IMG/VR virus record: IMGVR_UViG_3300032219_000250 | Coordinates: 1 to 60,344 of that record | Length of the DNA stretch: 60,344 nucleotides | Reading direction: 5' to 3' (one strand) | DNA from: a virus | Taxonomy: Duplodnaviria > Caudoviricetes | Shown here: positions 25,901 through 53,559 of the stretch, piece by piece | How the letters are laid out: the number at the start of each line of letters is the position of its first letter | Numbering within the stretch: position 1 is the stretch's first letter | Made by a program: the position numbers and the translations under genes | Notes under the pieces: generated by a model | Seen by the model: the letters and a program-made list of their open reading frames with translations, nothing else | Told to the model about the DNA's origin: nothing | Database searches by the model: none

Positions 25901-28900
25901 GGTCGGCAGAACCAAACTGACTGCCACTGCACAAGCCGCTAAGTTGTATTTCAGCAAGGTGCCTCGCGTTGTGGATGCCATGCGCAATATCGCGTTCGAT
26001 GTGGTCTACGACACGCCTCGCTTCCGTCGCGGTAGCGAATCAAAAGCTGAGTCTGACTTCTTCCAAGGCATGAACGGTGAGAACGCCAAGCTCGCGTTTG
26101 ACTGGATACGTGCAAACATGTCGAGCGAAACCAATGCACAACTGGACAAACTTGTTCAGGAGTATGAGCGTCAGCAACGCATGACAACAGATGAGGCATT
26201 GGTGCAGTTGTTCTCGGACGCCTTTGCTGGCAAAGAGACCGTTGATGCAACCATCCAGTCTTACATAGATGCCCAAAAGGGTGAGACCAAGAAGATCAAA
26301 CTTGACGCTGTACAGAGCGCGGGTTTACCCTTGCACCCCTCAGTCGTTGCGGCTTTGAAGGGTAATGATGTGCAAGGTGCTCTGCGCTTGTTGGCGGCAA
26401 GCACTGAAGGCCCAATCTCTCAAACTGCCTCGGCGCTGATCAAAGCCAAGATCACATCAAAAGTTGTTGTTGAGAAGAATCTCACCGATGAGAATGGTGT
26501 ACGTGTCCCCGGCTACTACGATCCGAAGACTGACACCGTATATCTTGATGCTGAGTTAGGCTTGAACCCACACGTGCTGTTCCATGAACTTGGACACGCC
26601 GCAACATCTCACGTGATTGAGAACAAGGCACACCCCTTGACAAAACAACTTACTCAGTTGTTTGATGACGTGAAGGGTTCGCTGGACACTGCATACGGCT
26701 CAACAAGTTTGGATGAGTTCGTTGCCGAGGCGTGGGCCAACGAAGAGTTCAAGGGCAAGCTCAACTCCATCAACCCCAAGGGCGAGAAGATCACTGCATG
26801 GCAACGCTTCACCAACGCGATTGTCAACTACTTCCGCAAACTCATGGGCAAAGAGACCAAGGGTATTGAGAGCGCATACGATGTGGCAGACCGCCTCATT
26901 CAAGCCATCTTGTCCCCTGCACCCGAGGGTCGTAATGGCCCGATGCTCTACGCCGCCGTGGTCAATCCCAAGAATCCAATGTTGGCAAACTGGCTCGACC
27001 AAGGTGTTGAAGTCGCCACGAAGTTAGGTGTACCTCCACAACTTGCCGCCAAGACGCACGAGTTCCTCAAGAACTCCACAAGCGGTGTGGCTAACAACAT
27101 GTTGTTGTCCACGTTGCCACTGCATGCACTGTCGGATGTTGCCAAGAAGTACCTGCCTAGAGCGGTCGATGTTGACCGTCTTGTTAACGAGAAGTCCGGT
27201 GACGAGTACGCACGTACTCAACGCATCGAACCTGTGATCAACGAAGCCGAACGCTGGGCAAAGGCCAACCCACAGTTGCTCGACAAGTTCAACCGTATCG
27301 TCTATGACAGCACGACCAACGAGGTTGATCCGTCTGTTCCACGTGAAACGTACGAGAAGATCAAGGACAAGGAAACCCGCGAGGCCAAGCTCAAAGAGTG
27401 GGATGCCATGCAAGCGGATTGGAAGAACCTTGGCCCCGGAGGTCGTCAGGTGTACACACGTATGCGTGATACCTACGCCGCCATGTACGAAGATGTCAAG
27501 AAGGCCATCGGTGCCAAGATTGACTCTGCCACAAGTGCTGACACTGCCAAGAAAATCAAGAACGAAATCTATGCCAAGCTCGCAGAGCGTGGACATGTAT
27601 CGCCTTACTTCCCACTGACACGTAATGGTGACTACTGGTTGTCGTACACCGCCAAAGACGCACGGGGTCAGCCTGACTTTTATGTCATGGCGTTTGAGAC
27701 CGAGTACGAGCGCAGTCGAGTAGAGGCGCAGTTGAAAGCGGGTAAGACTGAAAAAGAACTCAAAGAGATGGCGATCCGCGCGTACAAGAACATCGGCGAG
27801 ATCAGCTACAAGGATGTACCACCTACTTCATTTGTGAATGGCGTGCTCAAGACGCTCGAAGTCAACAAGGTTGATGAGAAGGCGCGAGAAGAAGTAATGC
27901 GCCTGTTCTTGAACACACTGCCTGAAACATCTTTTGCGCAAGGGTTCCAACGCCGCCAGAACCGCCTTGGATTTAACCGTGATGCCATCCGTGCGTTCCG
28001 CGAGAAGTCCATGAGCATGGCTCGGCAGTTAAACAACATGACCTACGCTTCCAAATTAACTGATCTGCGTGATCAGTTGAGAGCCGATGTCAGGGCACTG
28101 GGTCAGACCGAAGACAACCGTGTTGCCGCCGAGTACTACGATGAATTGAAGCAACGCATCAACTTTGCGATCAGCCCAACGACCAACACAGCAACTCGCA
28201 TACTGTCGTCAATTGGCTTTAACTACTTGCTCGGCTTCAACATCTCCTCTGCCGCTGTCAACTTAACGCAGGTTCCCCTGATCGTGTTGCCATATCTCGG
28301 CGGTAAGTACACCTACGGTGATGCAAGCAAAGCAATCCAAGAGGCGTACAAGATGTATGCCCGAAGTGGTTTTGACCGCAATGTGACCATCATGTCCAAG
28401 GAAGGCGATAAAGATGTTCAGGTGAATGAACGTGCAATGCCAGCACTGGACAACTACGACTTTGCCGCACTTGATGCCAAGAAAGATGCGCGTACAAAAC
28501 GACTGGAGACCCTTGCCGAGGAAGCCTCACGTGCGGGTCAACTCAACCGCTCCATGTTCTATGACGTGTTGGAAGTTGATGGAAGCAAGAACTTCTTCTC
28601 TGTGTTCAACGGTGCATCCAGTTTTGCTTTCCATCATGGTGAACGCATGAACCGTCAGGTGACGATGATTGCCGCCTACAACCTTGAACTCGATTCAATA
28701 GACGGCAAACTTAACAAACGTGTTGACCCCGACAGCACGGAAGACACGCGCACGTTCAAGGACTTGAGTCAGAAAGAACGTGAGCAGTACGCCGCTCGGC
28801 AAGCCATCTACACAACCGAGATGACCAACGGCGGTACCACTGCCGCATCTGCCCCTCGTATTGCTCAAGGGGCTTGGGGTAAGGTGCTCTTCATGTTCAA

Positions 28901-29819
28901 ACGGTATGGTGTGCAGATGTACTACATGCTGTTCAAGATGACACGTGAGATGTTGCAAAAACAAGACCCCGTGGTCAGAAAGCAAGCCATGAAGCAACTT
29001 GCTGGTGTGTATGGCACTGCGGCAATCTTCTCTGGCTTACAAGGCTTACCGCTGTTTGGCGTTGCCGCCATGATCTACAACATGTTCAGGGATGACGATG
29101 AAGAAGACTTCGGTACCGCCACACGTGCCTACATGGGGGAACTTGCGTACAAAGGTGTGGTCAATCAACTGACCAACCTTGACATCGCATCGCGTGTTGG
29201 TTTGGGTGATCTAATCTTCCGCGAAAACAAAATGTCGTCAGGCTCAGTATCGCTTGCCGAGACGCTCGGTGAAACGCTCGGTGGCCCTCTGTATGGCATC
29301 GGAACCAAAATTTATCGTGGTGTGAACATGATGTTTGACGGTGAAGTCATGCGCGGGTTTGAGACCGCACTGCCAACCGCCACAGGTAACCTGTTGAGGT
29401 CGTACCGATTCGCTACCGAAGGTGCTAATACTCTGCGTGGCGACCCCATCGTTGGAGACATTGCGGCTGGAAACGCATTTGCACAACTCTTTGGTTTTGC
29501 ACCCGCTAATTACACCAAGCAGTTGGAGATCAACGCAACCATCAAAGGCATCGACAAGTACGTCAACGAGACTGCAACAAAATTGCGCCGCCAGTACAAC
29601 ATCGCTGACAGGACGTACGACTTTGAGAAACAGATGGACGTGCGTGAGAAGTTGGAGAAGCTCTACGCCAAACACCCCTCCCTTGGAGACTTGGATACTT
29701 CTCTTATCAAGTCAAAGGCGGCGTTTGAAAAGCAGACACCGTTGATGTACAACGGCATCACCATCAGCCCGAAACTGCGTGACGAACTACTTGAGTTGGC
29801 GGCAGATTTGGAAGACTAA
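22926..29819 (+). CDS. 2297-aa large polyvalent ejection protein with zincin metallopeptidase and PLxRFG-like domain
   Basis: VLFHELGHAAT (HExxH) plus downstream DEFVAEA; YFPLTRNGDYW; Lys/Glu/Pro linker; last gene of the structural operon. Confidence 0.75.
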   Translation: MRVVNIPNYGPVSFPDGTPDEEINARVARFMAAQQQKQEYTPDYRDLGIGQLVSGGFKRAASSLGSTVTDLLPALGGAMVGNDKYAREQLAEAAEKRRQAELANPTGYKSYKDVRGLGDAAGFVAETVGELGPDILGLLTGAGVGASVGKRIATKGVEETAGKLAVESLAKKGLTGEALDAAAAQVGKDAVEAAAKKGAARGTMTGLYGSSVGLNAPDTFQNIFEKTGNLEPGIALAFGAAQGVLDTYLPSKILSQLGSAGRDRLAGEIVKRSSLIPDSAKVAVAKELAKTTAGEATTEALQEALGILAEKTAGAKGDFLSSENVDRLLNSAIKGAIGGGTFGAPGAIVEGRRSAQLQREEADRRTEAEGQPPAPPTGGTPKVDYNVPAYMRRAGTQTDMFQGELDKARGFGMDEVAKATPDSKGATYAESVEAAKLKLKSKGTSSLTADELNLLRSEPDTEIGTYDEGRQMSLFEDTGEKRAKRQAEVEESFKSAEPDLLGDVLPPTEQEASLEPVPDPRVEALIEKVRRREALAPDEIALLQGRVEEAPISADPRQGALQFAAPAPEGRGFREEPFNTQMPDQLQEKVGRDSAFRQAEQEAAAQKQAETVAAENQRQLQLAEPPAPPAPPAPAPREQVQESFPGMGVRYGDKVRANQEAARAEATTNKTPDAVSGVVSQDMLTGFGVLPAAPLRKRLVGKDLSNPTDRAQVQRELSAYAKNEAVPPESREKVNQFLQSPLFMEQTAMFGPKGGATAAATRKETPRVELKPIEPVPTITGEGVSVPSRPAEPEAPAGTPAPRNGGVDVSTSGTGQTGVRAEPKQGTLKTVKFEPVALVTPKVETKAKAKAKAETPSADEQADLQAELDAEMGQKTEVKATKPEVKVEKSKAEKPEVKAEKPAEKPKAEKPVEKPVEKVEPKKEAKAEKPAEKSVGKSEPKNEQKDVPEDIGEVKVSQARAGSLFERIKAEGYGIEKNDVDAKDVNRATLLKVGRTKLTATAQAAKLYFSKVPRVVDAMRNIAFDVVYDTPRFRRGSESKAESDFFQGMNGENAKLAFDWIRANMSSETNAQLDKLVQEYERQQRMTTDEALVQLFSDAFAGKETVDATIQSYIDAQKGETKKIKLDAVQSAGLPLHPSVVAALKGNDVQGALRLLAASTEGPISQTASALIKAKITSKVVVEKNLTDENGVRVPGYYDPKTDTVYLDAELGLNPHVLFHELGHAATSHVIENKAHPLTKQLTQLFDDVKGSLDTAYGSTSLDEFVAEAWANEEFKGKLNSINPKGEKITAWQRFTNAIVNYFRKLMGKETKGIESAYDVADRLIQAILSPAPEGRNGPMLYAAVVNPKNPMLANWLDQGVEVATKLGVPPQLAAKTHEFLKNSTSGVANNMLLSTLPLHALSDVAKKYLPRAVDVDRLVNEKSGDEYARTQRIEPVINEAERWAKANPQLLDKFNRIVYDSTTNEVDPSVPRETYEKIKDKETREAKLKEWDAMQADWKNLGPGGRQVYTRMRDTYAAMYEDVKKAIGAKIDSATSADTAKKIKNEIYAKLAERGHVSPYFPLTRNGDYWLSYTAKDARGQPDFYVMAFETEYERSRVEAQLKAGKTEKELKEMAIRAYKNIGEISYKDVPPTSFVNGVLKTLEVNKVDEKAREEVMRLFLNTLPETSFAQGFQRRQNRLGFNRDAIRAFREKSMSMARQLNNMTYASKLTDLRDQLRADVRALGQTEDNRVAAEYYDELKQRINFAISPTTNTATRILSSIGFNYLLGFNISSAAVNLTQVPLIVLPYLGGKYTYGDASKAIQEAYKMYARSGFDRNVTIMSKEGDKDVQVNERAMPALDNYDFAALDAKKDARTKRLETLAEEASRAGQLNRSMFYDVLEVDGSKNFFSVFNGASSFAFHHGERMNRQVTMIAAYNLELDSIDGKLNKRVDPDSTEDTRTFKDLSQKEREQYAARQAIYTTEMTNGGTTAASAPRIAQGAWGKVLFMFKRYGVQMYYMLFKMTREMLQKQDPVVRKQAMKQLAGVYGTAAIFSGLQGLPLFGVAAMIYNMFRDDDEEDFGTATRAYMGELAYKGVVNQLTNLDIASRVGLGDLIFRENKMSSGSVSLAETLGETLGGPLYGIGTKIYRGVNMMFDGEVMRGFETALPTATGNLLRSYRFATEGANTLRGDPIVGDIAAGNAFAQLFGFAPANYTKQLEINATIKGIDKYVNETATKLRRQYNIADRTYDFEKQMDVREKLEKLYAKHPSLGDLDTSLIKSKAAFEKQTPLMYNGITISPKLRDELLELAADLED

Positions 29820-29822
29820 GAG

Positions 29823-29849
29823 AAAAAACTCCCCGCACTAGGCGGGGAG
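29823..29849 (-). terminator. intrinsic terminator
   Basis: Minus strand CTCCCCGC-CTAGT-GCGGGGAG followed by TTTTTT. Confidence 0.8.
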
Positions 29850-29902
29850 GGAACTTCTCAAAGGAGAGGGAGATGAAACGACGGCAACTGCAATCACCGT
29901 CA
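29823..29902 (-). ncRNA. candidate ~80-nt trans-acting anti-RBS small RNA
   Basis: Own promoter, 5' hairpin GACGGTGA..TTGCCGTC, core GTTTCATCTCCCTCTCCTTT, terminator; core complementary to several phage translation starts. Confidence 0.6.
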
Positions 29903-29907
29903 CCGTG

Positions 29908-29936
29908 ACTGTATCACACCACTCTCCAAAAGCGAA
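29908..29936 (-). promoter_or_regulatory. sigma70-like promoter for the small RNA
   Basis: TTCGCT-17 nt-TACAGT with TG upstream of the -10. Confidence 0.5.
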
Positions 29937-30150
29937 CCCCTAATTTTCCTGCTTCAATCCGCTCGGCATGGGTTAGCTTGATTTCACGAAGCTCTGCTTC
30001 CCGTTGCATCTGTCTGATAAGTTTTGACAGGTTTAACGCAGGTATAAATACCGATGCGCCAACAGGAAACAGGCTCCACCGTACCTTGATTTCAACCCCA
30101 TCAGGGTTAATCGGCTTGCTGTACGGCTGTGGGAAGATTGATTGAGACAT
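29914..30150 (-). CDS. small hypothetical (possible DNA-binding) protein
   Basis: WSLFPVGASVFIP...GVRFWRV; overlaps end of primase. Confidence 0.6.
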   Translation of the reverse strand: MSQSIFPQPYSKPINPDGVEIKVRWSLFPVGASVFIPALNLSKLIRQMQREAELREIKLTHAERIEAGKLGVRFWRVV

Positions 30151-32998
30151 GCGCCGCCGCCAAGGTTTGCTCGACTTCATCCGACATGAACTCGGAACAG
30201 TCAATGACCAGTGCATCACTGGGAGGTAAGTTCATGTGTGTTCCCTTGCCCATGCGCACCTTCTTCATCACGGCGCGGGTCTGACCTGTCTTCAAACTTT
30301 CAACGAACGTCTGATAGTTGATCTGCTGTTTGTTGCACCACTCACGCAGTGGCTTGGGCAACAGATACATCTTCTTCACGTCATACTCATACCGAGCCAC
30401 CAGCGAGATGCGCGGCGAAGCATCAGGAATAATTAAATGCTCCAGTGCATCGCTTGCGTTGCGAGCATCGTCAGTGCTCTTGATACGCAAGATGTTGTTG
30501 TAGTTCTCGGCGAGAAAACTCGTCAAGGTGTCTTCAAGGGTGCCGCTCATTGTTTCAATCTCCTGTTTTGCTTTCTGAATTACACCAATCAACCACGTCA
30601 CAACATCTGATATTTTGTATTGGATCAAACCAAGGCGTTTGGCAACAAGCAGTCCGGTGATTGCCGATGCCGCTTGCACTGACCAAAAGCGGTGAGGTTG
30701 CGACAACCCTGCCGCTATATCAATACGTTCTTGTGTTTGCAGAAAGAGCGTACGGCACTCATCCATATTGGCAATAACGTACTGCATCAGTGGGATGCAA
30801 GCATGTCCGTAGTGTGCGTACAAGTTACGGCTCAAAACATCTGTCTCGGCTTTGGTGTCAAAGTGAAACTTCTGTGCCTCGTACTCCAACACGCGAGTAG
30901 CCTCGGCCTTGGGGATTGCCTTATACATACGAACACGTGCTAGTAAACTCGTGTTCCCTGTGCTGCACGCATTTGTGTGCCACGTCTCTCCACGTGCACG
31001 TTCCATGTTGGCGTTCTGACTCTGCCGATTCCTCTGCATACCGCCAGTCAGTTGGTACAGAAAGTCACTCGCTTCTTTTGGATGCACGTTGGTCATCTCG
31101 TCAATCGGCAAGAAGATGTTCTTGTACAACTCAGCGCGGTTCATCTTGGACGCATGGGTATCAACTTCACGAAGAAGAATCAACTCAGGGTTACCCCAAA
31201 TACTTGCACCCGCCATCATCGCTGTGGTCTTGCCAAGTCCGGGGTCTTGACTGTAAACGTGAAAGAGTGAAGCGCACTGCGGTACGAACTGCATGAACGG
31301 TGAACCGAACGATAGCCCAAGAATGTACTGGTGCAACTCCATACCATCGCGGTTGTAGAAGTCAGCGATCTCTTTCCAACCATCCAACGTGCCCTTGCTT
31401 TGAAACAGAGGAAACATGCGGACAGTAGAACTGGACGGAGGATTGTGATCCACACGGTCAGCCCGTATTTCTTTGCTACCAACAACAAACGCAGACATCT
31501 GCTCGTCTACCCAACCAAACTGCCGTCGGGCCTCATCAGCTTGTGTAGTTGCTTGCAACTTGTTTACCCATGATGCGGTGTATGACATAAGTTCTTCCAT
31601 CTTGATTACGGCAACGCCATGCGCCGCCATGTGTTTGCGAAACTCGTCCTTACTCAGGATCGACGCTAATGGAACGGTGAACTCACGCACCCCATCTTTA
31701 GGGAGGTGCAGTCGCATGACAACTGCCTCACCAACATCAGGATCACGCAGTCGTCTTACGACATAGAAGTCGTTGTGATAAATCGGCACCTCTATTGGGT
31801 CACCTTCCTTGTTCTTCATGCGCTTGAAAATACCGCCTGTCTTTCCACGGAAGAAAGGCTCGGGGTACTTCGGAATGATGTAGGTCTGCTTGGGTACGTC
31901 AACATGCAACTCGGGAACATCTTCCACAATGTTGTCTGCTTCGGTAGCTTCCTGCACTTCGCGTCCGAGCACGATAGGTGACTTGAACTTGCCACGGTGC
32001 TTGCAGTCTTTGCACACGTTGGGACTGAACTCGTCAAACTTGTCGCACGTATATGGCCCTTTGATCTGCGCCGCTTTTGCTTCGGTTGTATCAGGGTTGT
32101 AGTCGGGGTGACCCACTGAAATTTTGTGAATCGCTTTTGCGCCATCAACGCAGAACTTTGCAACGGACAGCCCGGCCCGCCACATAGGTTCACTCAGGGT
32201 AGCTTGTTCCTCTATGACCTTTTGAATCTGCGCACAGCCACGCCCTGCGGCGGTCTTCTGCACAATCAGTTTGAATGAGTTAGAGAAACTACCCGCCAGT
32301 GCGTTTGTCACGTCATCCATGACTCGCGGCACAAAGTTCCGTGCAGTGACAGGCACTTCACCCATCAACGCCTTGAACGCTTCAAACGTGATTGGCTTGC
32401 TCGGCTCACCGAGAATCGCCACAGGCGAAGGGGGATCGTCTTTGAAGTTGAATGACTCAGGTACACGAAGCACACGTGCCTTGTCACTCGGCACTGATGT
32501 ATCAATGTCGAACGCATGTAAATTACACAGTGCTTTGAATTGCTCGGCAACAACTTTCCACTCGTCTGCATCCACTGCCGCAACCAAAGGCCAGTACACA
32601 TGCACCCCTCCACCCGAATCAACCAGTGTGGGACGTGGTAATTTTGTTGCTACGCAAAACTTGCGCAACTCGGCAATCGCCGCTTGCTTACTTGGGAATT
32701 CCTTCCCCTCTCGACAGTCGAGGTCAAGAAAAAATGACCGCAACTGATGCGCGTTTTCGCCCTTACGATTCTCAGCCGTTTTGAATGTGGCGAGGGCAAA
32801 GTACGCATTGAATCCTTCTTTGATGAGGTTGTCTGCCGCATGGCACATCGCCTCTATGGTAGGGTACAACTTCTGCTTCTTGATCTCACGTTTTTGTTCA
32901 TCGCCGTTACCGTCGATATATGTCTCAACACGTGCGCCGAATACGCAGTAATGCCCCTCTCCACTCAGGACTGTTTCTAAAAATGTTTGTGTCTGCAT
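30107..32998 (-). CDS. DNA primase-helicase (AEP-type primase, Cys cluster, DUF927-like region, P-loop helicase)
   Basis: FFLDLD, SGGGVHVYW, ARVLRVP primase motifs; GPYTC..F...C.DC; Walker A GLGKTT, Walker B LPIDE. Confidence 0.85.
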   Translation of the reverse strand: MQTQTFLETVLSGEGHYCVFGARVETYIDGNGDEQKREIKKQKLYPTIEAMCHAADNLIKEGFNAYFALATFKTAENRKGENAHQLRSFFLDLDCREGKEFPSKQAAIAELRKFCVATKLPRPTLVDSGGGVHVYWPLVAAVDADEWKVVAEQFKALCNLHAFDIDTSVPSDKARVLRVPESFNFKDDPPSPVAILGEPSKPITFEAFKALMGEVPVTARNFVPRVMDDVTNALAGSFSNSFKLIVQKTAAGRGCAQIQKVIEEQATLSEPMWRAGLSVAKFCVDGAKAIHKISVGHPDYNPDTTEAKAAQIKGPYTCDKFDEFSPNVCKDCKHRGKFKSPIVLGREVQEATEADNIVEDVPELHVDVPKQTYIIPKYPEPFFRGKTGGIFKRMKNKEGDPIEVPIYHNDFYVVRRLRDPDVGEAVVMRLHLPKDGVREFTVPLASILSKDEFRKHMAAHGVAVIKMEELMSYTASWVNKLQATTQADEARRQFGWVDEQMSAFVVGSKEIRADRVDHNPPSSSTVRMFPLFQSKGTLDGWKEIADFYNRDGMELHQYILGLSFGSPFMQFVPQCASLFHVYSQDPGLGKTTAMMAGASIWGNPELILLREVDTHASKMNRAELYKNIFLPIDEMTNVHPKEASDFLYQLTGGMQRNRQSQNANMERARGETWHTNACSTGNTSLLARVRMYKAIPKAEATRVLEYEAQKFHFDTKAETDVLSRNLYAHYGHACIPLMQYVIANMDECRTLFLQTQERIDIAAGLSQPHRFWSVQAASAITGLLVAKRLGLIQYKISDVVTWLIGVIQKAKQEIETMSGTLEDTLTSFLAENYNNILRIKSTDDARNASDALEHLIIPDASPRISLVARYEYDVKKMYLLPKPLREWCNKQQINYQTFVESLKTGQTRAVMKKVRMGKGTHMNLPPSDALVIDCSEFMSDEVEQTLAAAHVSINLPTAVQQAD

Positions 32999-33020
32999 GA
33001 CCGCCTTCTGAAGTGGAGTG

Positions 33021-33053
33021 AAAGAAAAAAGGGTGCGGGAGCGACCCGCACCC
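33021..33053 (-). terminator. intrinsic terminator between the SSB-like gene and primase
   Basis: GGGTGCGGG-TCGCT-CCCGCACCC followed by TTTTTTCTTT on the minus strand. Confidence 0.8.
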
Positions 33054-33064
33054 TGACAAAACGA

Positions 33065-33988
33065 TTAGTCGTCCCAACCGTCCACCAACTCACTCAGCTT
33101 TGGGGCATCAGTGTTGGCAACAGTTTTCTTGGGGGCAACTTTCGTAGGCTCTTCCACTTCTTCAACGGCAACAGTTTTCTTGGGCGCAACTTTAGCGGCG
33201 ATCTTCTCGTACACAGGAGCATCTTCCTGCTTGGTCAACTCACCCATAGTGCGCACGCCATCTTTAGGCTTGATCACCACAGTCATCTTCACCGCTTCAT
33301 CAGCTTCAGCAGAATTGCGCACTGCTTCCACATCGTTGTACTCTTCTTCAGTGATCGGACGCACAGGCTTAAAGATCAACTTGGGAGTCGGCGATGCAGT
33401 GTCGAAACGCATCTCAGTGATCACACCCGCAACAGGTGTGTTGTGTGCCTTCAAGTGGCGACCGTACGCTTGCAGAGGGAGCTTGCCCTTCTCGCCATCA
33501 CCGAACACAGATGTTGCAGGGCAGATGACTTGATAGACTTCGCGCTTGGCGGTCTCGCCTTCAATCAACACGGCAATGCGTTGATGGAATCGGCATGCAC
33601 GACCTTCACCTTGGGATGCAGACCCCTTGATGTTTTGTGGGCAGTCCATGCACTTGTTGGCTTGCTTCTGCTCTGCGGGTACAGCGGCATCAGGCGTTTG
33701 GTTGTTGCTTGACCAACATGTTGGTGAGGCGTTTTGTCCTTCGACATACGCACCCTCAAAGAAAGTGCGGTACACGTTCGGCGCGGCCTTGACGATGATC
33801 ACGCCAATAGCACGGTCTTCACTCGTACGAACTTCTTTGTTGCCAAGCATCTCACGGAACACGCCGCCTTTGATGCTGATCTTGCGTTGACCCGCTTCGC
33901 CACCTGCCAGTGAGGAAGTGGTGTCATCTTCTTGCAGGTTCTTCAGGTAGGCGGGAAGCCCAGTTTTGAACAGTGTTAATTCGCTCAT
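33065..33988 (-). CDS. single-stranded DNA binding / annealing-like protein
   Basis: SD AAGGAGA; KISIKGGVFR, PTCWS, C.DCP.N..GS...GRACR; acidic/aromatic C-terminal tip WDD. Confidence 0.6.
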   Translation of the reverse strand: MSELTLFKTGLPAYLKNLQEDDTTSSLAGGEAGQRKISIKGGVFREMLGNKEVRTSEDRAIGVIIVKAAPNVYRTFFEGAYVEGQNASPTCWSSNNQTPDAAVPAEQKQANKCMDCPQNIKGSASQGEGRACRFHQRIAVLIEGETAKREVYQVICPATSVFGDGEKGKLPLQAYGRHLKAHNTPVAGVITEMRFDTASPTPKLIFKPVRPITEEEYNDVEAVRNSAEADEAVKMTVVIKPKDGVRTMGELTKQEDAPVYEKIAAKVAPKKTVAVEEVEEPTKVAPKKTVANTDAPKLSELVDGWDD

Positions 33989-33998
33989 CTCATTCTCC

Positions 33999-34280
33999 TT
34001 AAACATCTTTATCAGGGTTAAAGTCCAACTCCAATTGCACGGGTGCTTTGGGGTCAGGGGTATCTGCCACAGGTGCGACAGGTTCGGGGGTAGCGTCAGC
34101 GGATACACGGCGCAAGGCCGCATCCACGTCAGCAATTTTGAAGCGGTACGTATTGCCCAACTTCAAAAAATCGGTGGTTGTTAATTTGCCAGTACGAATC
34201 CACGTGCGAATAGTGGACACGGATACCGAGTAGTACTTGGCAACGTCTTCTATCGAGACATAGGTGTTGTCGCTCATCAT
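33999..34280 (-). CDS. excisionase/MerR-like helix-turn-helix DNA-binding protein
   Basis: VSIEDVAKYYSVSVSTIRTWIRTGKL....KLG..YRF. Confidence 0.8.
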   Translation of the reverse strand: MMSDNTYVSIEDVAKYYSVSVSTIRTWIRTGKLTTTDFLKLGNTYRFKIADVDAALRRVSADATPEPVAPVADTPDPKAPVQLELDFNPDKDV

Positions 34281-34669
34281 TCCTTCCTCACAGTGATTTG
34301 GTATTCGCTATCCACGTTAAGACCCGGTGGTAGCAAGTCGGGGTGTTCTTCTAAAAACGTCTGCATGTTGCCTTGGTGTAGGCGTTTCTCGAACAACTCG
34401 GGCACTTGGTGCTCAAGGACAAACTTGCCCATCGCTTCCCAATTGTTTGTGGTGAACCGCTTCTTAACACTGCGATAGAACAAGCCCTCGCCAGTGCGCA
34501 CGGTTTCTAGATTTTGAACTTTCAGATAGTCGAGGAGTCCCGCTTTGACCTGATCCATCTGCGCGTCAATCTTCTTGACTTGCGCCTCAAGATCGGCCTT
34601 TGCCGCCCTCATTTTTAGGTAGACCTTCACGAGCTTTTCAGCGGGGATAGTCGGTGCAGTTTCACTCAT
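34277..34669 (-). CDS. coiled-coil replication-module protein
   Basis: SD GGAGAG; LVKVYLKMR...VRTGEG...LLPPGLNVD. Confidence 0.65.
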   Translation of the reverse strand: MSETAPTIPAEKLVKVYLKMRAAKADLEAQVKKIDAQMDQVKAGLLDYLKVQNLETVRTGEGLFYRSVKKRFTTNNWEAMGKFVLEHQVPELFEKRLHQGNMQTFLEEHPDLLPPGLNVDSEYQITVRKE

Positions 34670-34701
34670 CTCATCTCTCCATTTTGGTTGTAGGAACTCT
34701 C

Positions 34702-36260: not shown

Positions 36261-36282
36261 GTCGTTTCATCTTCTCGTTATA

Positions 36283-36357: not shown

Positions 36358-36359
36358 AT

Positions 36360-36555: not shown

Positions 36556-36561
36556 CTACCC

Positions 36562-38115: not shown

Positions 38116-39928
38116 AGGATTGTCCAACACCGCTCTCGCAGTTCACAGGTAAACCCGCCGCCCACTCAGGTGTCCACCGCATGCACTCTTCCACAAACGC
38201 TTGGGCTTCCACAACCTCTGCATCAGGAACGACACACGCAATAGCATCATGTACGGTGAGCACCACCTTGTACCGCTTCCCGATCTTGAGCATCTGCTCG
38301 GCGATGATGCACCGCGCAATTGCTTGGCACACGTTCTCGATTACCTTGCCGCCATAGATTCGGGTGCGTCCTTTGCGAGTCATGTAACTGAACTCCACGC
38401 CGTTCTCACCTTGCGTAAACTTCAGGTCGGTGTACCGCATCAACAGTCCGCTCGGCAACTTGACCGCAGTCTCCCCCGTGTCCACGCTCAGGACACCCTT
38501 ACGCCCCAACACACACGGCTCTGCGCGTGACATGTTGATCAACATGTTCTGGGCCTGCCGCCATAAAGCTGTCACCGCAGGATTTGTTTTACGGTAAATG
38601 TCAATGATGCGCCGGGCCTCATCGAGTGATACATCAACCCCAAACGTCTTTAACTGTGCTTGGAACTTGACCGCGCCCATGCCGTAACCCGCGCCAAGGA
38701 TTGTGGTCTTACCCACGAACCGCTCATCCTTCGTGATGTCTGCCTCGGGCTTGCCGTAGATAGCCGATGCCATCTTCTTATACACATCATCTTTACGTGC
38801 GAACGCTTCCACCAAGTCGTTCTGTTCAGCAAGCCACGCCAACACACGCGCTTCAATCTGTGCGGAGTCAGCATCAATTACCTTGTACCCTTGCGGTGCG
38901 AGGATAGCGTTCTTCAACTTCCCTGCGTTCTGCCCACGGCTAGGTAGGTTTTGCAGGTTGATCTTGTCGTCACCACCAAACCTACCAGTATGTGCGGCGT
39001 AATACTTGATCGGTACGGGGAGCTTGCCACGTGATGCTATATCTATAAACCTCTGTGTGCGTGTCTCCTCCAGTGTGGACTTCGTTCCGAGTCGTGCCGC
39101 AACAAGACCTTGCACTCTCACATCAGGGTGCTCGGCAAGGGCTTTGAATTCCTCATCGTTCTTGGCAAGTGCAAGGGTTTCTTTACCTGTGGTCGCACTG
39201 ATCTTCATGGGCGGCTCAACGCCTAGCTTACGTAGTACTTCCGCAAACTTGGGGTTAGACATCAATTCCTCCTTCTCAACTCCCACATCAGCCAATAACT
39301 TCTCTTTGCGTCCTTGCACATCTATCAGATGCTCCGCCAGTAGCGTAGCGTCTAACTCCAATACAGGCTCAGTGAACATACGCAAAGTTTGGTTGATGAC
39401 GTGCAATTCTTTCTTAGGAAAGCCATCAGCCAACATCTTGGTAAACAATGTGTGAGTCAGGCTCACATCGTTGATACAGTAGTCGCCATACTTGGACAAC
39501 TCAAACTCACTGAAGTCTTGGCGGCGATAGCCCTTGAAGTTGTGCACCTCCGTACCCTTCTTCCCAATACCATATCGCTCGGCAAGTGCGGCAAGAGAAC
39601 CGCTCACCTCTACGCCATGAATGGCTCGTCCCATACACAGGGTGTCCACCCAAAACTTCGGTCGAATATTAAAATGGTGCGATAGGATGAATCCGTCAAA
39701 CATCGCGTTGTGTGCGAGAGTTGTTGACGCAGCCCAGTCAAACGTATTCAACCACGTAACAAGTTCTTCGTGTGTGCCGCTTGCCCACTGCGGCTCGTCA
39801 TCGTTGATCTTCACCGCCACGCCGATCACATGGAACTGCGGATCACGCACATACTCTTCAGTCGTCTGCTTGGCAAAGCCAACGTCCGCAGAGTAGTACG
39901 TTTCAAAGTCAATTGTTATTAGATTCAT
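38102..39928 (-). CDS. polA: family A DNA polymerase with 3'-5' exonuclease domain
   Basis: IDFETY, AHNAMFD, YCINDV; HTGRF, NLQNLP, motif A DSAQIEARVLAW, motif B RFVGKTTILGAGYGMG, motif C TVHD. Confidence 0.92.
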   Translation of the reverse strand: MNLITIDFETYYSADVGFAKQTTEEYVRDPQFHVIGVAVKINDDEPQWASGTHEELVTWLNTFDWAASTTLAHNAMFDGFILSHHFNIRPKFWVDTLCMGRAIHGVEVSGSLAALAERYGIGKKGTEVHNFKGYRRQDFSEFELSKYGDYCINDVSLTHTLFTKMLADGFPKKELHVINQTLRMFTEPVLELDATLLAEHLIDVQGRKEKLLADVGVEKEELMSNPKFAEVLRKLGVEPPMKISATTGKETLALAKNDEEFKALAEHPDVRVQGLVAARLGTKSTLEETRTQRFIDIASRGKLPVPIKYYAAHTGRFGGDDKINLQNLPSRGQNAGKLKNAILAPQGYKVIDADSAQIEARVLAWLAEQNDLVEAFARKDDVYKKMASAIYGKPEADITKDERFVGKTTILGAGYGMGAVKFQAQLKTFGVDVSLDEARRIIDIYRKTNPAVTALWRQAQNMLINMSRAEPCVLGRKGVLSVDTGETAVKLPSGLLMRYTDLKFTQGENGVEFSYMTRKGRTRIYGGKVIENVCQAIARCIIAEQMLKIGKRYKVVLTVHDAIACVVPDAEVVEAQAFVEECMRWTPEWAAGLPVNCESGVGQSYGDC

Positions 39929-40485
39929 CTCTTCTCCATCTGTTGTATTTTTCTTCGCAACATAGCACGACATGTTGCCATGCCATCGTTGAACCCTTTG
40001 CGGTAAGCATCGTCTAACTCAATCTCGCTCTCCAACTCAAGGGTGACCAACTCCAAAAGAAGTTTTGCCGCACTGATATGCTCGGCTTCAAGTCTTCCTC
40101 GAAACGAACTTGCAAGCGAATCCATGAACAACATCGCGCTCTGATCTGCGTTGCCCTCAAACTTCATCACGCCACCGTTGAAGTCAAGCCTACCTACTTG
40201 CACCTGTTTACCCTCTACCATGTTGTTCAGCGTGATGTTGTAGTCGGGCTTGGCTACACCAATCGACATTATCTTTCCCTGATCTTTCTTCATGCTATAC
40301 CCCATGCTTTGTGCCGCCTCTAAAGATGTTGGGTTGACTGTCTTGTTGATACCCGCGTTCAGTGCTTGTAAGTCGAGCTTCTCCATGATTTCTGCGGCTT
40401 TGCGATCCGCTTCTTGAACATGTCCGGCTTCTATCACTTGAACAAGCCGTGTGATCTCGGCTTCGTGTTCTTCATTGTTTTCCAT
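39925..40485 (-). CDS. hypothetical protein
   Basis: SD GAGG; VGRLDFNGGVMKFEGNADQSA motif. Confidence 0.6.
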   Translation of the reverse strand: MENNEEHEAEITRLVQVIEAGHVQEADRKAAEIMEKLDLQALNAGINKTVNPTSLEAAQSMGYSMKKDQGKIMSIGVAKPDYNITLNNMVEGKQVQVGRLDFNGGVMKFEGNADQSAMLFMDSLASSFRGRLEAEHISAAKLLLELVTLELESEIELDDAYRKGFNDGMATCRAMLRRKIQQMEKR

Positions 40486-42404: not shown

Positions 42405-42707
42405 TTAAATTCCTAGGACACGTCCTAGTGTTTCCTCAAATACGCCCACGTTCTCATCATTGACAACAAGGGCGATCCCGCCAGACCTTTCGATCTGACG
42501 TAGATTCTTTTCCTGAAGGGGTGTGGTCGTGTTCTTCCCTGCCTTGCACTCGATCCCAATGAATCGTCCGTGCAAGCAGACAAGAAAGTCGGGTGCACCT
42601 GAATTGCCATAGCCCCCTGTAACAGGCATGACGTAGTACGCACCCAACTTATCCAACACCTTACGTACCTGTGCTTTCACACGGCGTTCGGGTGTCATTG
42701 CCATCAT
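42405..42707 (-). CDS. VRR-NUC domain nuclease / Holliday junction resolvase-like
   Basis: TPE..VK, GAPDFL, FIGIECKAG, T.LQ...L..I...GG. Confidence 0.85.
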   Translation of the reverse strand: MMAMTPERRVKAQVRKVLDKLGAYYVMPVTGGYGNSGAPDFLVCLHGRFIGIECKAGKNTTTPLQEKNLRQIERSGGIALVVNDENVGVFEETLGRVLGI

Positions 42708-43077
42708 CTTCTCCTTCGTCAGGGTAGACCCAAAAGGTTCCCCTAGATATACGTCTACCTATCCCCTTGATTTCGTCCATCGGTTTCTCAGGATCGAAAA
42801 TCATAAGCACTGCAATCTTGCGTTGCATCCACTCAGGTAGTACGTCCACAGAATCATAGCTCCGATCTACATCTTCTGCAAGCCCCCATGTAGTAATGTT
42901 TACCCTACCGTTTGGCTCGACTGCCACACGATAAGTTTGCGTTGCCATAGCCACAAATATCTGTGCGGTTACGGTCTTGTTGTCAAGTTTGCTCACGCTA
43001 TGCCGCATCAAGTCCGACATAGCCGTGAACGTCTTGCGCTCGTGCTTGGACATATAGTCCTCGGCGTTGCTGTCCAT
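42661..43077 (-). CDS. hypothetical protein, paralogous to the C-terminus of 43079..44038
   Basis: LPEWMQRKIAVL...GIGRRISRGTFWV. Confidence 0.65.
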   Translation of the reverse strand: MDSNAEDYMSKHERKTFTAMSDLMRHSVSKLDNKTVTAQIFVAMATQTYRVAVEPNGRVNITTWGLAEDVDRSYDSVDVLPEWMQRKIAVLMIFDPEKPMDEIKGIGRRISRGTFWVYPDEGEDDGNDTRTPCESTGT

Positions 43078-51615: not shown

Positions 51616-53183
51616 GTTCTACCCCTCAAATCCAAGCTGAAGACCTCTCCGATGAGGAAATCGACTTTATGGTCGAGAATATTGAGCAGTTTGAAGAGGA
51701 AGAACGTGCGGAAATTATGGCGGCGGCAGGTGCCCTGTCAGCCAGACGCCATGCGGCGGCGTGTCATGCAGACTTAATTGAGTTTTGCAAGCACATGCAA
51801 CCAGACTACAAGGTTGGTAAGCACCACCGCATCTTGGCAGACCTCCTGATGGAGATTGCAGAGGGGCGAAAAGACCGTATTTGCGTGAATATTCCGCCTC
51901 GTCACGGTAAATCTCAGCTTGTGTCAATATATTTCCCCGCTTGGTTCATAGGGAAATACCCTAATAAAAAGGTGATGATGGTGTCCCACACCACCGATCT
52001 GGCGGTGGATTTTGGTCGAAAGGTGCGAAACATCATCGACACCGACTTGTACCGTGACATTTTCCCAACAGTGGGGCTTGCCGCTGACTCCAAGTCAGCA
52101 GGGCGTTGGAACACCGCCGCAGGTGGTGAGTACTACGCTTGCGGTATCGGTAGCTCAATCGCAGGTCGCGGTGCTGACTTGCTTCTTGTCGATGACCCGC
52201 ACTCCGAGCAGGACGTGCTGAACGGCAACTTTGATGTGTTTGACAAGGCGTATGAGTGGTTCACCTTCGGTGCTCGTACTCGTCTGATGCCCGGTGGTCG
52301 CGTTGCGATCATTCAAACACGTTGGCACTTGGCTGACTTGACAGGGCGCGTGATCAAGGACATGGCGCAGAACGAAGGCTCTGACCAATACGATGTGGTC
52401 GAGTTCCCTGCAATCCTTGAACTGCCAGACCCAAACAACGACCACATGACGATTGAGAAACCGCTGTGGCCTGAGTTCTTCGACTTAAAAGCACTGCACA
52501 GAACCAAGGCTTCGATGCCTCTGTTCCAGTGGAACGCCCAGTATCAGCAGAACCCCACTGCCGAGGAAGCCGCTATCGTTAAGCGCGAGTGGTGGAACTA
52601 CTGGAAAGAAGAAGACCCGCCGCACTGCGAGTACGTCATCATGTCTCTTGACTCTGCGGCAGAAGCGCACAACCGTGCCGACTTCACTGCGCTCACAACG
52701 TGGGGTGTGTTCCTCAATGAGAAGGACGACCGCTACAACATCATCCTGCTCAACTCAATCAAGCGGCGTGTTGAATTTCCTGAACTCAAGCGCCTGTGCT
52801 ACACCGAGTGGCAGGACTGGGAGCCAGACTCGTTCATTGTGGAGAAGAAGTCCTCGGGAACGCAGTTGTACCAAGAGATCAGACGCACAGGTATACCTGT
52901 ACAAGAATTCACCCCCCACAGAGGGACAGGCGACAAGACAGCACGTCTGAACTCAGTAGCCGACATCATCCAGTCTGGACTGGTGTGGGTGCCCGAGACG
53001 CGATGGGCAGAGGAGGTGGTCGAAGAAATTGCCGCCTTCCCATTCGCACAGCATGATGACTTGGTGGACTCAACTGTAATGGCGCTCATGCGCTTTAGAG
53101 CAGGAGGGTTTATCAGGTTGCCCGACGACGAGGCAGAAGAGCCACGGTTCTTCAAGTCACGAGGTCGTGGTGGATATTATTAA
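51612..53183 (+). CDS. terL: terminase large subunit
   Basis: PPRHGKS Walker A, GRGADLLLVDDP Walker B, QTRWH..DL.G, nuclease SLDSA, HDDLVDS. Confidence 0.95.
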   Translation: MSSTPQIQAEDLSDEEIDFMVENIEQFEEEERAEIMAAAGALSARRHAAACHADLIEFCKHMQPDYKVGKHHRILADLLMEIAEGRKDRICVNIPPRHGKSQLVSIYFPAWFIGKYPNKKVMMVSHTTDLAVDFGRKVRNIIDTDLYRDIFPTVGLAADSKSAGRWNTAAGGEYYACGIGSSIAGRGADLLLVDDPHSEQDVLNGNFDVFDKAYEWFTFGARTRLMPGGRVAIIQTRWHLADLTGRVIKDMAQNEGSDQYDVVEFPAILELPDPNNDHMTIEKPLWPEFFDLKALHRTKASMPLFQWNAQYQQNPTAEEAAIVKREWWNYWKEEDPPHCEYVIMSLDSAAEAHNRADFTALTTWGVFLNEKDDRYNIILLNSIKRRVEFPELKRLCYTEWQDWEPDSFIVEKKSSGTQLYQEIRRTGIPVQEFTPHRGTGDKTARLNSVADIIQSGLVWVPETRWAEEVVEEIAAFPFAQHDDLVDSTVMALMRFRAGGFIRLPDDEAEEPRFFKSRGRGGYY

Positions 53184-53196
53184 AAGGAGAGATGAG

Positions 53197-53559
53197 ATGT
53201 ACATGATGGAGAAACTGGATGCGTACAAGCAAGAGATCGAGCGCACGATCACGTGGCAAGAGTGGTACAAGCAGAACTACTGGATAACCAACAAAGACGT
53301 ACCTGACTACCACAAAGAACTGATGCTTCGATACGGCAACGAGATGCTACGCATCCACGACGACCTCAAAAAATACTGTAATGCTTTACTTATTAAGGCA
53401 CAGGAGCACAATTCGTCTGTCGATAGATTGGTGTTTGATCTTCGCAAGCTCCATGAGGACTATGCGAAACTTGACAAAAAGTACAAGGCGTTGAAGAAGA
53501 AAACAACGCCTACAAAGAAACCTGCGGCTAAGAAAGTCGCTAAACCTAAAGGAACCTGA
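53197..53559 (+). CDS. coiled-coil protein with Lys/Ala/Pro-rich tail, inserted between terL and portal
   Basis: SD AAGGAG; C-terminal KKKTTPTKKPAAKKVAKPK. Confidence 0.65.
   Translation: MYMMEKLDAYKQEIERTITWQEWYKQNYWITNKDVPDYHKELMLRYGNEMLRIHDDLKKYCNALLIKAQEHNSSVDRLVFDLRKLHEDYAKLDKKYKALKKKTTPTKKPAAKKVAKPKGT

What the first reader, a model, noticed from the sequence alone, without database searches (positions are those of the whole stretch)
29823..29936. Candidate phage small RNA that base-pairs with the start regions of its own replication genes
Seen: on the minus strand, promoter TTCGCT-17-TACAGT, a 5' hairpin, the core GUCGUUUCAUCUCCCUCUCCUUU and an intrinsic terminator define an ~80-nt RNA with no ORF. 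The core is complementary to the SD/AUG region of the SSB-like gene (33985-34000, 14 of 16 nt), the 34669 gene (34666-34680, 7+6 bp), the helicase (36261-36272, 12 contiguous bp ending next to the AUG), DNA polymerase (39924-39937, 8+5 bp), VRR-NUC (42704-42716, 6+7 bp) and the gene between terL and portal (53183-53199, 6+9 bp). Most structural genes share only the generic SD. Inference: one trans-acting sRNA coordinately represses the replication regulon, as an early-to-late switch or a carrier-state control in a phage without an obvious repressor or integrase. Part of the match is expected from any anti-SD sequence. The helicase 12-mer and the spacer matches are not.
Basis: partly seen in the sequence, partly recalled or inferred. 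Interest (0 to 1): 0.85.

Follow-up and report, generated by a model that had tools for sequence, protein, structure and literature searches.

The report
Conserved phage anti-RBS small RNA
A short non-coding RNA gene at the end of the replication genes of an uncultured aquatic phage, kept in dozens of relatives, carries a stretch complementary to the ribosome-binding sites of the phage's own helicase and neighbouring genes, so it probably turns their translation down.

Summary
At 29823-29916 (minus strand) lie a -10-like box over the stop codon of a small conserved ORF, a 5' hairpin, a single-stranded CU-rich stretch and an intrinsic terminator. The same layout sits at the same place, after the primase gene, in 13 of 13 viral contigs and 51 of 63 metagenome loci with enough sequence. 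It persists down to about 41% primase identity, while the hairpin sequence is replaced completely.

The core pairs with minus-strand (replication) gene starts better than any of 300 shuffled cores. Structural gene starts score like shuffles.

In distant subfamilies with different seeds, the best complement is again the translation start of the helicase, of the gene after it (DUF7307-like), or of the gene before the primase.

There is no expression evidence. Rfam has no matching family.

Best reading: a new family of phage base-pairing small RNA that represses translation of its own helicase-to-primase gene block. The early-to-late switch and carrier-state ideas remain untested.

The parts
29914..30150 (-). 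Small conserved ORF after the primase gene (ends ...GVRFWRVV, stop TGA 29916-29914). Its 3' end overlaps the putative promoter of the RNA.
   Evidence: the C-terminus is conserved in all clades. No family in PHROGs, Pfam or NCBIfam.
29931..29936 (-). -35-like hexamer TTCGCT. It matches 3 of 6 consensus positions and lies in coding sequence.
   Evidence: It was not called by the promoter scan. Its conservation is confounded by the coding sequence.
29908..29916 (-). TGA stop plus TACAGT, which reads as an extended -10-like box TGnTAnnnT.
   Evidence: The box recurs as TGATACAGT, TGATACATT, TGATATAGT, TGATATATT, TGATACTAT or TGATAGTCT in most subfamilies, including non-coding and synonymous positions. 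Hairpin 1 starts 6-7 nt after it in most rows.
29880..29901 (-). 5' hairpin (hairpin 1): 9 pairs, 3 of them G.U.
   Evidence: for the fold. In one search, all 9 pairs form in 6 distinct clade A/B sequences, with 2 pairs changed on both sides. The G.U pairs fit the minus strand only. Other subfamilies have other hairpins at the same place.
29860..29882 (-). Core or seed GUCGUUUCAUCUCCCUCUCCUUU. It is single-stranded from 29879 on, and its first 3 nt form the base of hairpin 1.
   Evidence: A CUCC-containing stretch is kept in every subfamily; the family consensus is CGUUCUCCU.
29857..29868 (-). Weak small hairpin 2 (CUC/GAG). It is stronger in relatives.
   Evidence: UCUCU/AGAGA in L016, CCUGU/ACAGG in L013, GUUGG/CCAAC in L057, UGGUC/GACCA in L061.
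29823..29849 (-). Intrinsic terminator: 8-bp G+C-rich stem, loop of 5, then U6.
   Evidence: In one search, 6 of 8 pairs show changes on both sides across 53 rows.
36261..36272 (-). Helicase leader site AGAUGAAACGAC, positions -12 to -1 before the AUG at 36260. It forms 12 Watson-Crick pairs with the core.
   Evidence: In G001/G002 the site reads ...CGGU opposite seed GCCG, an A-U to G-C change plus C-G to U.G.
33985..34000 (-). This is the best predicted duplex, at -24.1 kcal/mol.
   Evidence: The orthologue's start carries the seed complement in L079 and L076.
34666..34680 (-). Translation start region of the 130-aa gene after the helicase (DUF7307-like).
   Evidence: The orthologue's start is the best or only match in L049, carries the seed complement in L079, and is a top hit in G003/G004.
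42704..42716 (-). Start region of a 100-aa endonuclease gene. Candidate site, -23.3 kcal/mol.
   Evidence: The same start region ranks in the top 10 in G001.
39924..39937 (-). Start region of the DNA polymerase gene. Weaker candidate site, -18.3 kcal/mol.
53183..53199 (+). Start region of the 120-aa late-module gene between terminase and portal. Candidate site, -23.5 kcal/mol.
   Evidence: The orthologue ties for best in G001 at -26.3 kcal/mol.

Best explanation
The locus encodes a small RNA of about 80 nt.

Transcription (inferred): it is made from an extended -10-type promoter that overlaps the stop codon of the last small ORF of the helicase-to-primase gene block, and/or it is released as that block's 3' end. 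It stops at the intrinsic terminator.

Shape: a 5' hairpin, a single-stranded CU-rich seed that looks like the reverse complement of a ribosome-binding site, often a small second hairpin, then the terminator.

Action (inferred): the seed pairs with the Shine-Dalgarno-to-AUG region of phage mRNAs. The main partners are the helicase, the DUF7307-like gene after it and the gene before the primase, with weaker sites at other replication-module genes. Pairing blocks 30S binding and so lowers translation.

Consequence (inferred): the RNA lies at the end of the gene block it targets, and its dose rises with transcription and genome copy number. It would therefore act as negative feedback on replication proteins.

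Shown by sequence comparison: the conserved anatomy, the strand, and the complementarity and its conservation. Inferred: the transcript, the repression and the physiological role.
For: (1) Anatomy..

(2) Conservation at one syntenic place.
- 13 of 13 viral contigs with downstream sequence carry the element; 15 were found and 2 end at the gene.
- Model R2 hits 51 of the 63 metagenome loci that have at least 300 nt after the primase match. 21 of these were not in the training set.
- All hits lie on the gene strand, 190-265 nt after the match. The only off-site hit is window 49609-49692.

(3) RNA structure on the minus strand.
- Hairpin 1 is 100% paired in 6 distinct clade A/B sequences, with 2 pairs changed on both sides and conserved G.U pairs.
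- 13 predicted RNAs from different subfamilies have unrelated hairpin sequences yet fold alike, with z from -3.2 to -6.9.

(4) Promoter hint. A TGnTAnnnT box is kept beyond the stop codon, and the hairpin starts 6-7 nt after it in most rows.

(5) Pairing statistics.
- Window: 33 replication starts average -14.85 kcal/mol and 43 structural starts -11.45 (Mann-Whitney p 0.0012). A generic anti-SD probe shows no difference (p 0.40).
- Against 300 shuffled cores, 0 reach the replication mean, 47 reach the structural mean and 0 reach the difference between them.
- G001 repeats the result: replication z -4.5, p 0.0018.

(6) Seed and target change together.
- WIN versus G001/G002: helicase leader ...CGAC versus ...CGGU, opposite seed GUCG versus GCCG.
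- 42-45% subfamily: seed complement GGAGAGTAGATGG against helicase start GGAGAGTAAATGG. This is the only non-self hit, with 0.17 expected, and it occurs in 6 of 6 loci holding both regions.
- L049: 15 of 17 positions match the start of the DUF7307-like orthologue, with 0.03 expected.
- L079: all 3 AGGAGAAC sites are the starts of the helicase, the DUF7307-like orthologue and the gene before the primase. Expected 0.34; 1 of 200 shuffles reaches 3.
- L076: both non-self sites are the helicase start and the gene before the primase.

(7) The opposite strand carries no conserved ORF.
Against: - There is no transcript evidence. The only runs found hold contigs of relatives about 90% alike. One RNA-library contig spans the locus but tells neither ends nor strand.
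- The sigma-70 scan finds no promoter, and the -35 is poor.
- Part of any match is generic SD complementarity.
- Gene starts are my own calls, made with an SD-based rule. WIN and G001 are related, so they are not independent.
- In clade C the preference is weak: G003 replication z -2.4, Mann-Whitney p 0.14. In G004 it is absent: replication z -1.5, structural z -1.4. No extended ungapped match turns up there.
- In the 55% clade the helicase start does not match, and the match to the next gene is not above chance: 2 non-self hits against 0.97 expected.
- The one compensatory position also sits in hairpin 1, so the hairpin alone could explain the change in the seed.
- The lengths of the search patterns were chosen after seeing the seeds.
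- The host is unknown, so host targets could not be scored.
- 12 of 63 loci gave no hit. One of them (L058) has another gene at that place.
Confidence: 0.55

Rival explanations
1. The region is only the 3' untranslated end and terminator of the helicase-to-primase mRNA. The hairpins protect the 3' end or aid termination. The CU-rich stretch has no pairing partner in trans, or at most folds back in cis on the same long mRNA.
For: - The element follows the last ORF of the block on the same strand, so read-through transcripts must contain it.
- The promoter scan finds nothing.
- There is no evidence of a separate transcript.
- The pairing preference is weak in G003 and absent in G004.
Against: - Stabilising hairpins would not need a single-stranded CUCC stretch kept across subfamilies in which everything else in the gap has changed.
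- They would not need seeds that match specific start regions 4-6 kb upstream with different sequences in different clades.
- Another terminator of the window with a CU-rich tract (49609-49692) is not conserved in G001, so such tracts are not a general feature of terminators here.
- The -10-like box at a fixed distance from hairpin 1 argues for its own start.
Confidence: 0.15
2. The RNA is real, but its main partners are host mRNAs or Shine-Dalgarno sequences in general. It would be a mimic of the 16S rRNA 3' end used for host shut-off or for retuning translation. Matches to phage starts are a by-product.
For: - The part kept in the whole family is essentially an anti-SD motif, (G)UUCUCCU or CUCUCC.
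- Weak Rfam likeness points to bacterial sRNAs with such seeds: anti-hemB at 24.3 bits, E 0.0066.
- Structural gene starts in G001 also beat shuffles, z -3.0.
Against: - The matches extend beyond the SD into spacer, AUG and flanks of particular phage genes: 12, 8+5 and 11+3 pairs.
- They hit the same three orthologous genes in distant subfamilies.
- A generic anti-SD probe does not separate replication starts from structural starts.
- Host genomes could not be tested because the host is unknown.
Confidence: 0.12
3. The function lies on the plus strand. An SD plus ATG after the giant late gene would start a small peptide or a ribosome-loading site. Alternatively, the minus-strand RNA is a plain antisense to read-through late transcripts.
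For: - AAGGAG..ATG at 29861-29875 is a good ribosome-binding site.
- An ATG follows the SD-like stretch in clades A, B and C and in the 42-45% subfamily.
- The terminator has no T-run for the plus strand, so late transcripts may read through.
Against: - The ORF is 11, 32, 35 or 5 codons long, and the peptide is not shared between clades.
- No start codon follows the SD-like stretch in the L044, L049 and L095 types.
- Three conserved G.U pairs of hairpin 1 become A.C mismatches on the plus strand.
- The T-run lies on the minus strand.
Confidence: 0.05
4. The RNA is a protein decoy or sponge. Its pyrimidine-rich single strand would bind ribosomal protein S1, Hfq or a phage RNA-binding protein rather than mRNAs.
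For: The only support is the general shape: a single-stranded pyrimidine tract between hairpins, with a U-tail. That such proteins bind tracts of this kind is established knowledge recalled here, not tested.
Against: A decoy need not follow clade-specific changes in the start regions of particular genes. No protein partner can be named from the sequence.
Confidence: 0.05

Closest known systems
c4 antisense RNA of phages P1/P7
   Same: A small phage RNA that binds around the ribosome-binding site of the phage's own mRNA and blocks translation. Its complementary stretches are presented by the RNA's secondary structure. Source: passages of the review PMC12197685 seen.
   Different: c4 belongs to temperate phages and serves immunity by controlling the antirepressor. 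No sequence or Rfam likeness was found here: no family reaches its gathering score over the whole window, and only three unrelated sub-threshold hits appear at E up to 10. This RNA lies at the 3' end of a replication gene block, and its candidate sites lie 4-6 kb upstream, in several genes.
sar RNA of phage P22
   Same: A phage RNA of about 68-69 nt that pairs with the start region of a phage mRNA (ant) and prevents its translation. Source: review passage and table row seen.
   Different: That sar is transcribed from the strand opposite its target, and so fully complementary to it, is recalled knowledge; it is not in the passages I saw. Here the targets are on the same strand, far away, and only partly complementary.
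T4 RegA translational repressor (protein), with T4 RegB
   Same: The logic is the same. RegA competes with the ribosome at the translation initiation regions of about 30 early and middle mRNAs, and its gene lies at the end of the core replication gene cluster (passages of PMC3014915). RegB cleaves within GGAG and inactivates early mRNAs (abstract of PMC1702504).
   Different: RegA and RegB are proteins, whereas this element is an RNA that would recognise the starts by base pairing. There is no homology. No regA or regB relative was looked for in the window.
Bacterial base-pairing sRNAs with C/U-rich anti-SD seeds; Rfam anti-hemB RF02837 is the nearest model
   Same: A short RNA with a single-stranded C/U-rich seed and an intrinsic terminator. 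The weak match covers the seed and terminator, 29821-29881.
   Different: The score of 24.3 bits is far below the gathering score of 49.5, so this is not a member. It is phage-encoded, and the candidate targets are phage genes.
sRNAs that share the 3' end and terminator of an mRNA and have a promoter inside the upstream coding region (e.g. DapZ, MicL; recalled, not searched)
   Same: It sits at the 3' end of an operon and shares its terminator. The candidate promoter overlaps the end of the upstream ORF.
   Different: Those are chromosomal, Hfq-dependent sRNAs of enterobacteria that act on unrelated mRNAs. Here the candidate targets are genes of the same operon. The promoter and any Hfq dependence are untested.

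Membership tests
Rfam anti-hemB (RF02837) | Covariance-model score at or above the gathering score (49.5 bits) | tested here: not met
   24.3 bits, E 0.0066 on 29821-29881. Nothing reaches a gathering score in the whole window.
Rfam GcvB (RF00022) and NmsRb (RF02877) | Score at or above the gathering score (42 and 52 bits) | tested here: not met
   20.8 and 18.1 bits.
Any other curated RNA family of Rfam 15, known phage RNAs included | A match at the gathering score, or at least E up to 10, at the locus | tested here: not met
   Only the three sub-threshold hits above appear in 29000-31000. The whole window gives 0 at gathering scores.
Trans-acting base-pairing sRNA (general class) | Single-stranded seed conserved among relatives | tested here: met
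   A CUCC-containing stretch is unpaired in the folds of most of the 13 representatives; it is partly paired in L079 and L049. It is kept in 53 aligned rows.
Trans-acting base-pairing sRNA (general class) | Intrinsic terminator with a U-tail at the 3' end | tested here: met
   Covariation is seen in 6 of 8 pairs.
Trans-acting base-pairing sRNA (general class) | Complementarity to target start regions that exceeds chance and is kept, or changes together, in relatives | tested here: met
   It is weak or absent in clade C and the 55% clade.
Trans-acting base-pairing sRNA (general class) | Own transcript (promoter or processing) detectable as a discrete RNA | tested here: inconclusive
   A -10-like box is conserved, but the scan finds no sigma-70 promoter. 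Only contigs of RNA runs were available, with no ends or strand.
Trans-acting base-pairing sRNA (general class) | Repression of targets that depends on the seed; chaperone (Hfq/ProQ) binding | not testable with these tools
   This needs reporter assays and binding assays. The host is unknown.
Cis-encoded antisense RNA (P22 sar type) | Transcribed opposite its target and fully complementary to it | tested here: not met
   Candidate targets are on the same strand, 4-6 kb away and partly complementary. The opposite strand holds no conserved ORF.
tRNA / tmRNA | Detected by ARAGORN | tested here: not met
   0 genes in the window.

The most novel reading that the evidence does not exclude
A whole lineage of uncultured freshwater and marine phages of about 60 kb would run an RNA-only feedback loop on DNA replication. 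A small RNA gene at the tail of the helicase-to-primase operon would have arisen as an inverted copy of the helicase start region. It would keep re-matching the start regions of the same three genes as they drift. Its 5' hairpin would act as a built-in mimic of the target: the 5' arm carries the same letters as the helicase leader (GAC in the window, GGU in G001; GUAGAUG against GUAAAUG in the 42-45% subfamily). That mimic would gate the seed like a toehold. This would be an RNA counterpart of T4 RegA.
Probability: 0.3. Interest if true: 0.78.

Novelty: new member of a known kind. Interest (0 to 1): 0.62.

Why it matters
The regulatory RNAs of phages named in the review passages I saw come almost all from temperate phages. 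They either guard immunity or act on host genes.

This is a candidate small RNA family, with a ready covariance model, found in 51 of 63 related metagenome loci. It seems to be aimed at the phage's own replication proteins. If it works as proposed, translation control of replication genes by occluding ribosome-binding sites would have been solved here with RNA; T4 does it with the proteins RegA and RegB.

It would also give a clean natural series of co-varying seed and target pairs for study. The pairs can be tested in a laboratory strain with reporter fusions, without the unknown host.

Tried and rejected
- INPHARED phages, DNA search of 28500-31500: no match.
- Nearest cultured relative by primase is Pseudomonas phage Rollin at 28% identity. 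Its convergent genes abut and leave no room for the element.
- Public runs. Three runs hold small shares of the stretch. Laid on 24000-42000 they give only contigs of relatives about 90% alike. One 891-nt contig of an RNA library spans 29480-30256, but contigs show no ends, strand or level, so nothing follows for or against a transcript.
- A second copy. The model hit at window 49609-49692 is the end of a small ORF plus a CU-rich tract and a terminator. The tract is missing at the matching place in G001, so I rejected it as a paralogue.
- tRNA or tmRNA: none.
- Family-wide covariation of hairpin 1. MAFFT plus RNAalifold on 13 predicted RNAs recovers only the terminator, because the hairpin sequences are unrelated. 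I therefore rely on single folds and on clade A/B counts.
- Extended ungapped matches in clade C (L027): none.
- L072: none, but that locus lacks the upstream genes.
- L044: the 20-mer finds nothing and the 12-mer is not above chance.
- Naming the 'SSB-like' gene: Pfam, NCBIfam and PDB sequence searches give nothing.
- Energy-based target scoring for the 41-55% subfamilies could not be done because the script machine was lost. I used pattern searches with shuffle expectations instead.
- Supplementary tables of the review PMC12197685 (38 further phage sRNAs without known function) could not be seen and may list something similar.
- 'Not in print' rests only on searches and the passages seen.
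Full report
WHAT IS THERE

The window is a virus record of 60,344 bases, rated 96% complete. Plus-strand structural genes end with a 2,297-aa ORF at 29819. Minus-strand genes run from about 49,000 down to a primase/helicase-like gene (30107-32998; PHROG primase families) and a small ORF whose stop is at 29916-29914. The finding occupies the 94-nt convergent gap.

On the minus strand I confirm:
- TTCGCT, a 17-nt spacer, then TACAGT
- a hairpin at 29901-29880
- the core at 29882-29860
- a terminator at 29849-29829 followed by T6

The RNA 29901-29823 folds as 5' hairpin, open CU-rich stretch and terminator: z -4.5, and 0 of 200 shuffles fold as well. Rfam gives only sub-threshold hits (anti-hemB 24.3 against 49.5 bits). 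Nothing reaches a gathering score in the whole window.

CONSERVATION

The primase protein found 15 viral contigs. The 13 that have sequence after the gene all carry the element, in three clades at 97-99%, 82-83% and 59% primase identity. A metagenome scan gave 78 loci at 99-40% identity. By my count from that table, 63 have at least 300 nt after the match.

A first model built from 8 sequences hit 30 of them at E up to 1. A second model built from those hits reached 51 of the 63 at E up to 0.1, and 21 of these were not in the training set. Every hit is on the gene strand, 190-265 nt after the match. The only other hit is window 49609-49692.

Of the 12 loci without a hit I looked at two. L058 has another gene at that place, and L052 has an extra gene before the small ORF.

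The alignments show four things in every subfamily:
- The stop codon of the small ORF is followed by TAnnnT, read as TGATACAGT, TGATACATT, TGATATAGT, TGATATATT, TGATACTAT or TGATAGTCT. This has the form of an extended -10 box and includes non-coding letters.
- A hairpin starts 6-7 nt later in most rows. Its sequence is wholly different between subfamilies.
- A CUCC-containing single strand follows. The family consensus is CGUUCUCCU.
- A terminator with compensatory changes in 6 of 8 pairs closes the element.

IT IS AN RNA OF THE MINUS STRAND

In six distinct clade A/B sequences, hairpin 1 is paired in all cells. Two pairs change on both sides and three G.U pairs are conserved. Those G.U pairs would be A.C mismatches on the other strand.

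Thirteen predicted RNAs from different subfamilies fold alike, with z from -3.2 to -6.9.

The opposite-strand SD plus ATG opens ORFs of 11, 32, 35 and 5 codons with no shared peptide across clades. Several subfamilies have no start codon there.

PAIRING WITH PHAGE STARTS

All six claimed complementarities exist. I used my own gene calls, which gave 81 start regions from -30 to +15.
- The 33 minus-strand replication-module starts average -14.85 kcal/mol with the core, and the 43 structural starts -11.45 (one-sided Mann-Whitney p 0.0012).
- A generic anti-SD probe does not separate the two groups (p 0.40), and purine content is equal.
- Of 300 shuffled cores, 0 reach the replication mean, 47 reach the structural mean, 0 reach the difference, 0 give nine starts at -20 or better (mean 0.75), and 1 reaches a 12-nt run.
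- With a second start-calling rule and each genome's own core: window, replication z -4.3 and structural z -0.9. G001 (97% complete), -4.5 and -3.0 with p 0.0018. G003 (54% complete; 16 and 15 starts), -2.4 and +0.2 with p 0.14. G004 (57% complete), -1.5 and -1.4, which is no preference.

The signal is thus clear in clades A and B, which are related to each other. It is weak or absent in clade C.

SEED AND TARGET CHANGE TOGETHER

The exact 12-mer occurs only at the locus and at the helicase leader. In G001 and G002 the last 22 nt before the helicase AUG are identical to the window except at positions -2 and -1. These read AC in the window and GT in G001/G002, while the seed reads GUCG in the window and GCCG in G001/G002. 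That is an A-U to G-C change plus a C-G to U.G change. The same seed letter is also paired in hairpin 1, whose 5' arm shows the same two changes (GAC to GGU), so this single event is only moderate evidence.

Stronger evidence comes from distant subfamilies:
- 42-45% subfamily. The seed complement GGAGAGTAGATGG meets the helicase start GGAGAGTAAATGG. This is the only non-self hit in L063, with 0.17 expected at up to 2 mismatches. The pair is present in 6 of 6 loci that hold both regions, with both sides invariant.
- L049 (49%). 15 of 17 letters of the seed complement match the start of ORF 2986-3381, with 0.03 expected. That ORF is the orthologue of the window's 34669 gene (53% identity; same gene order).
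- L079 (41%). All three AGGAGAAC sites are the starts of the helicase, of that orthologue and of the gene before the primase. Expected 0.34; 1 of 200 shuffles reaches three.
- L076. Both non-self sites are the helicase start and the gene before the primase.

These are the same three genes that top the window's list.

Against this stand two cases:
- The 55% clade shows no helicase match and only a non-significant match to the next gene.
- Clade C shows no extended ungapped match.

The pattern lengths were chosen after seeing the seeds.

HOW IT MOST LIKELY WORKS

I read this as a small RNA of about 70-85 nt made at the tail of the helicase-to-primase gene block. It pairs through its open anti-RBS seed, extending into the 3' arm of hairpin 1, with the SD-to-AUG region of the helicase, the DUF7307-like gene and the pre-primase gene. 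Weaker sites lie at other replication genes and at one late gene. Pairing would block ribosome binding.

The helicase (SNF2-like) has a sigma-70-like promoter 300 nt upstream and a structured leader. Another such promoter stands before the 34669 gene.

The transcript, the repression and the role as feedback or timing device are inferences. A carrier-state role has no support.

COMPARISON WITH WHAT IS KNOWN

By mechanism the nearest are the phage RNAs c4 (P1/P7) and sar (P22), which block ribosome-binding sites of their own phage's mRNAs (passages of PMC12197685). By logic the nearest is T4 RegA, a protein that competes with ribosomes at about 30 start regions and whose gene ends the replication cluster (passages of PMC3014915). 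RegB, which cuts GGAG in early mRNAs, is a further parallel (abstract of PMC1702504).

No curated RNA family fits. Three literature searches and the review passages did not show a phage sRNA aimed at several of its own replication genes. The review's supplementary table could not be seen.

I file the element as a new family within the known kind 'base-pairing small RNA that occludes ribosome-binding sites'.

LIMITS

- The script machine was lost, so energy-based scoring was not extended beyond four genomes.
- The host is unknown.
- The RNA runs gave only contigs.

Noticed in passing
window 36273-36350 (-), between the promoter-like site 36590-36562 and the helicase AUG at 36260: A tRNA-like cloverleaf lies directly before the helicase start region. 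It has a 7-bp acceptor-like stem GGCAUCG/CGGUGCC and a T-arm-like CUUGG-UUUGAAU-CCAAG. Compensatory changes occur in G002 (GGUAUCG/CGAUACC; CUCGG/CCGAG). ARAGORN calls no tRNA and Rfam finds nothing. The loop at the anticodon position reads CUA in the window and GAA in G002.
   Followed up: partly
window 47527-47542, 42413-42428, 48689-48708, 49382-49399, 50613-50628, 49209-49224, 49493-49510, 46511-46536: A repeated 16-nt palindrome, CTAGGACACGTCCTAG and variants, is scattered through the early and replication region. It looks like the operator of a DNA-binding regulator. An HTH_17 protein is encoded at 33999-34280.
   Followed up: no
window 49563-49578, 49617-49632, 49862-49877: Three copies of the hairpin GCCCCCGCAAGGGGGC occur in the early region. 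Two are followed by TTTTTT(T/A)CGTCTGTAC. The middle one is preceded by a CU-rich tract (AUCUCUCCCCCUCC) that the RNA models pick up, but the tract is absent at the matching place in G001.
   Followed up: partly
window 48786-48814 (-), 36562-36590 (-), 34702-34729 (-); terminator 33030-33054 (-): Three near-consensus sigma-70-like promoters lie on the minus strand (11, 10 and 10 of 12 matches). A strong terminator stands between the pre-primase gene and the primase. The replication module therefore seems to be cut into several transcription units read by host polymerase.
   Followed up: no
L076, L079, L082, L083, L091, L098, L105, L069, L074, L075, L097, L101, L086, L067, L073 (terminator loop of the element): In the marine-type 41-43% subfamilies the terminator stem encloses a conserved insert (GG(C/T)(T/C)AGGTTTCGCACTGCAA...). 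It forms an extra small stem-loop inside the terminator loop.
   Followed up: no
window 29914-30150 (-) and the matching ORF in all relatives: A small ORF of about 78-88 aa follows and overlaps the end of the primase gene. Its C-terminus (...GKLGVRFWR.V) is conserved, and no family is found in PHROGs, Pfam or NCBIfam. Its last codons double as the candidate promoter of the RNA.
   Followed up: partly
window 33988, 34669 and 53197 start regions: Three genes share an almost identical start cassette, GGAGA(A/G)(A)UGAGAUG. Two lie in the replication module and one between terminase and portal. The reverse complement of the RNA core looks like a fourth copy of this cassette.
   Followed up: partly
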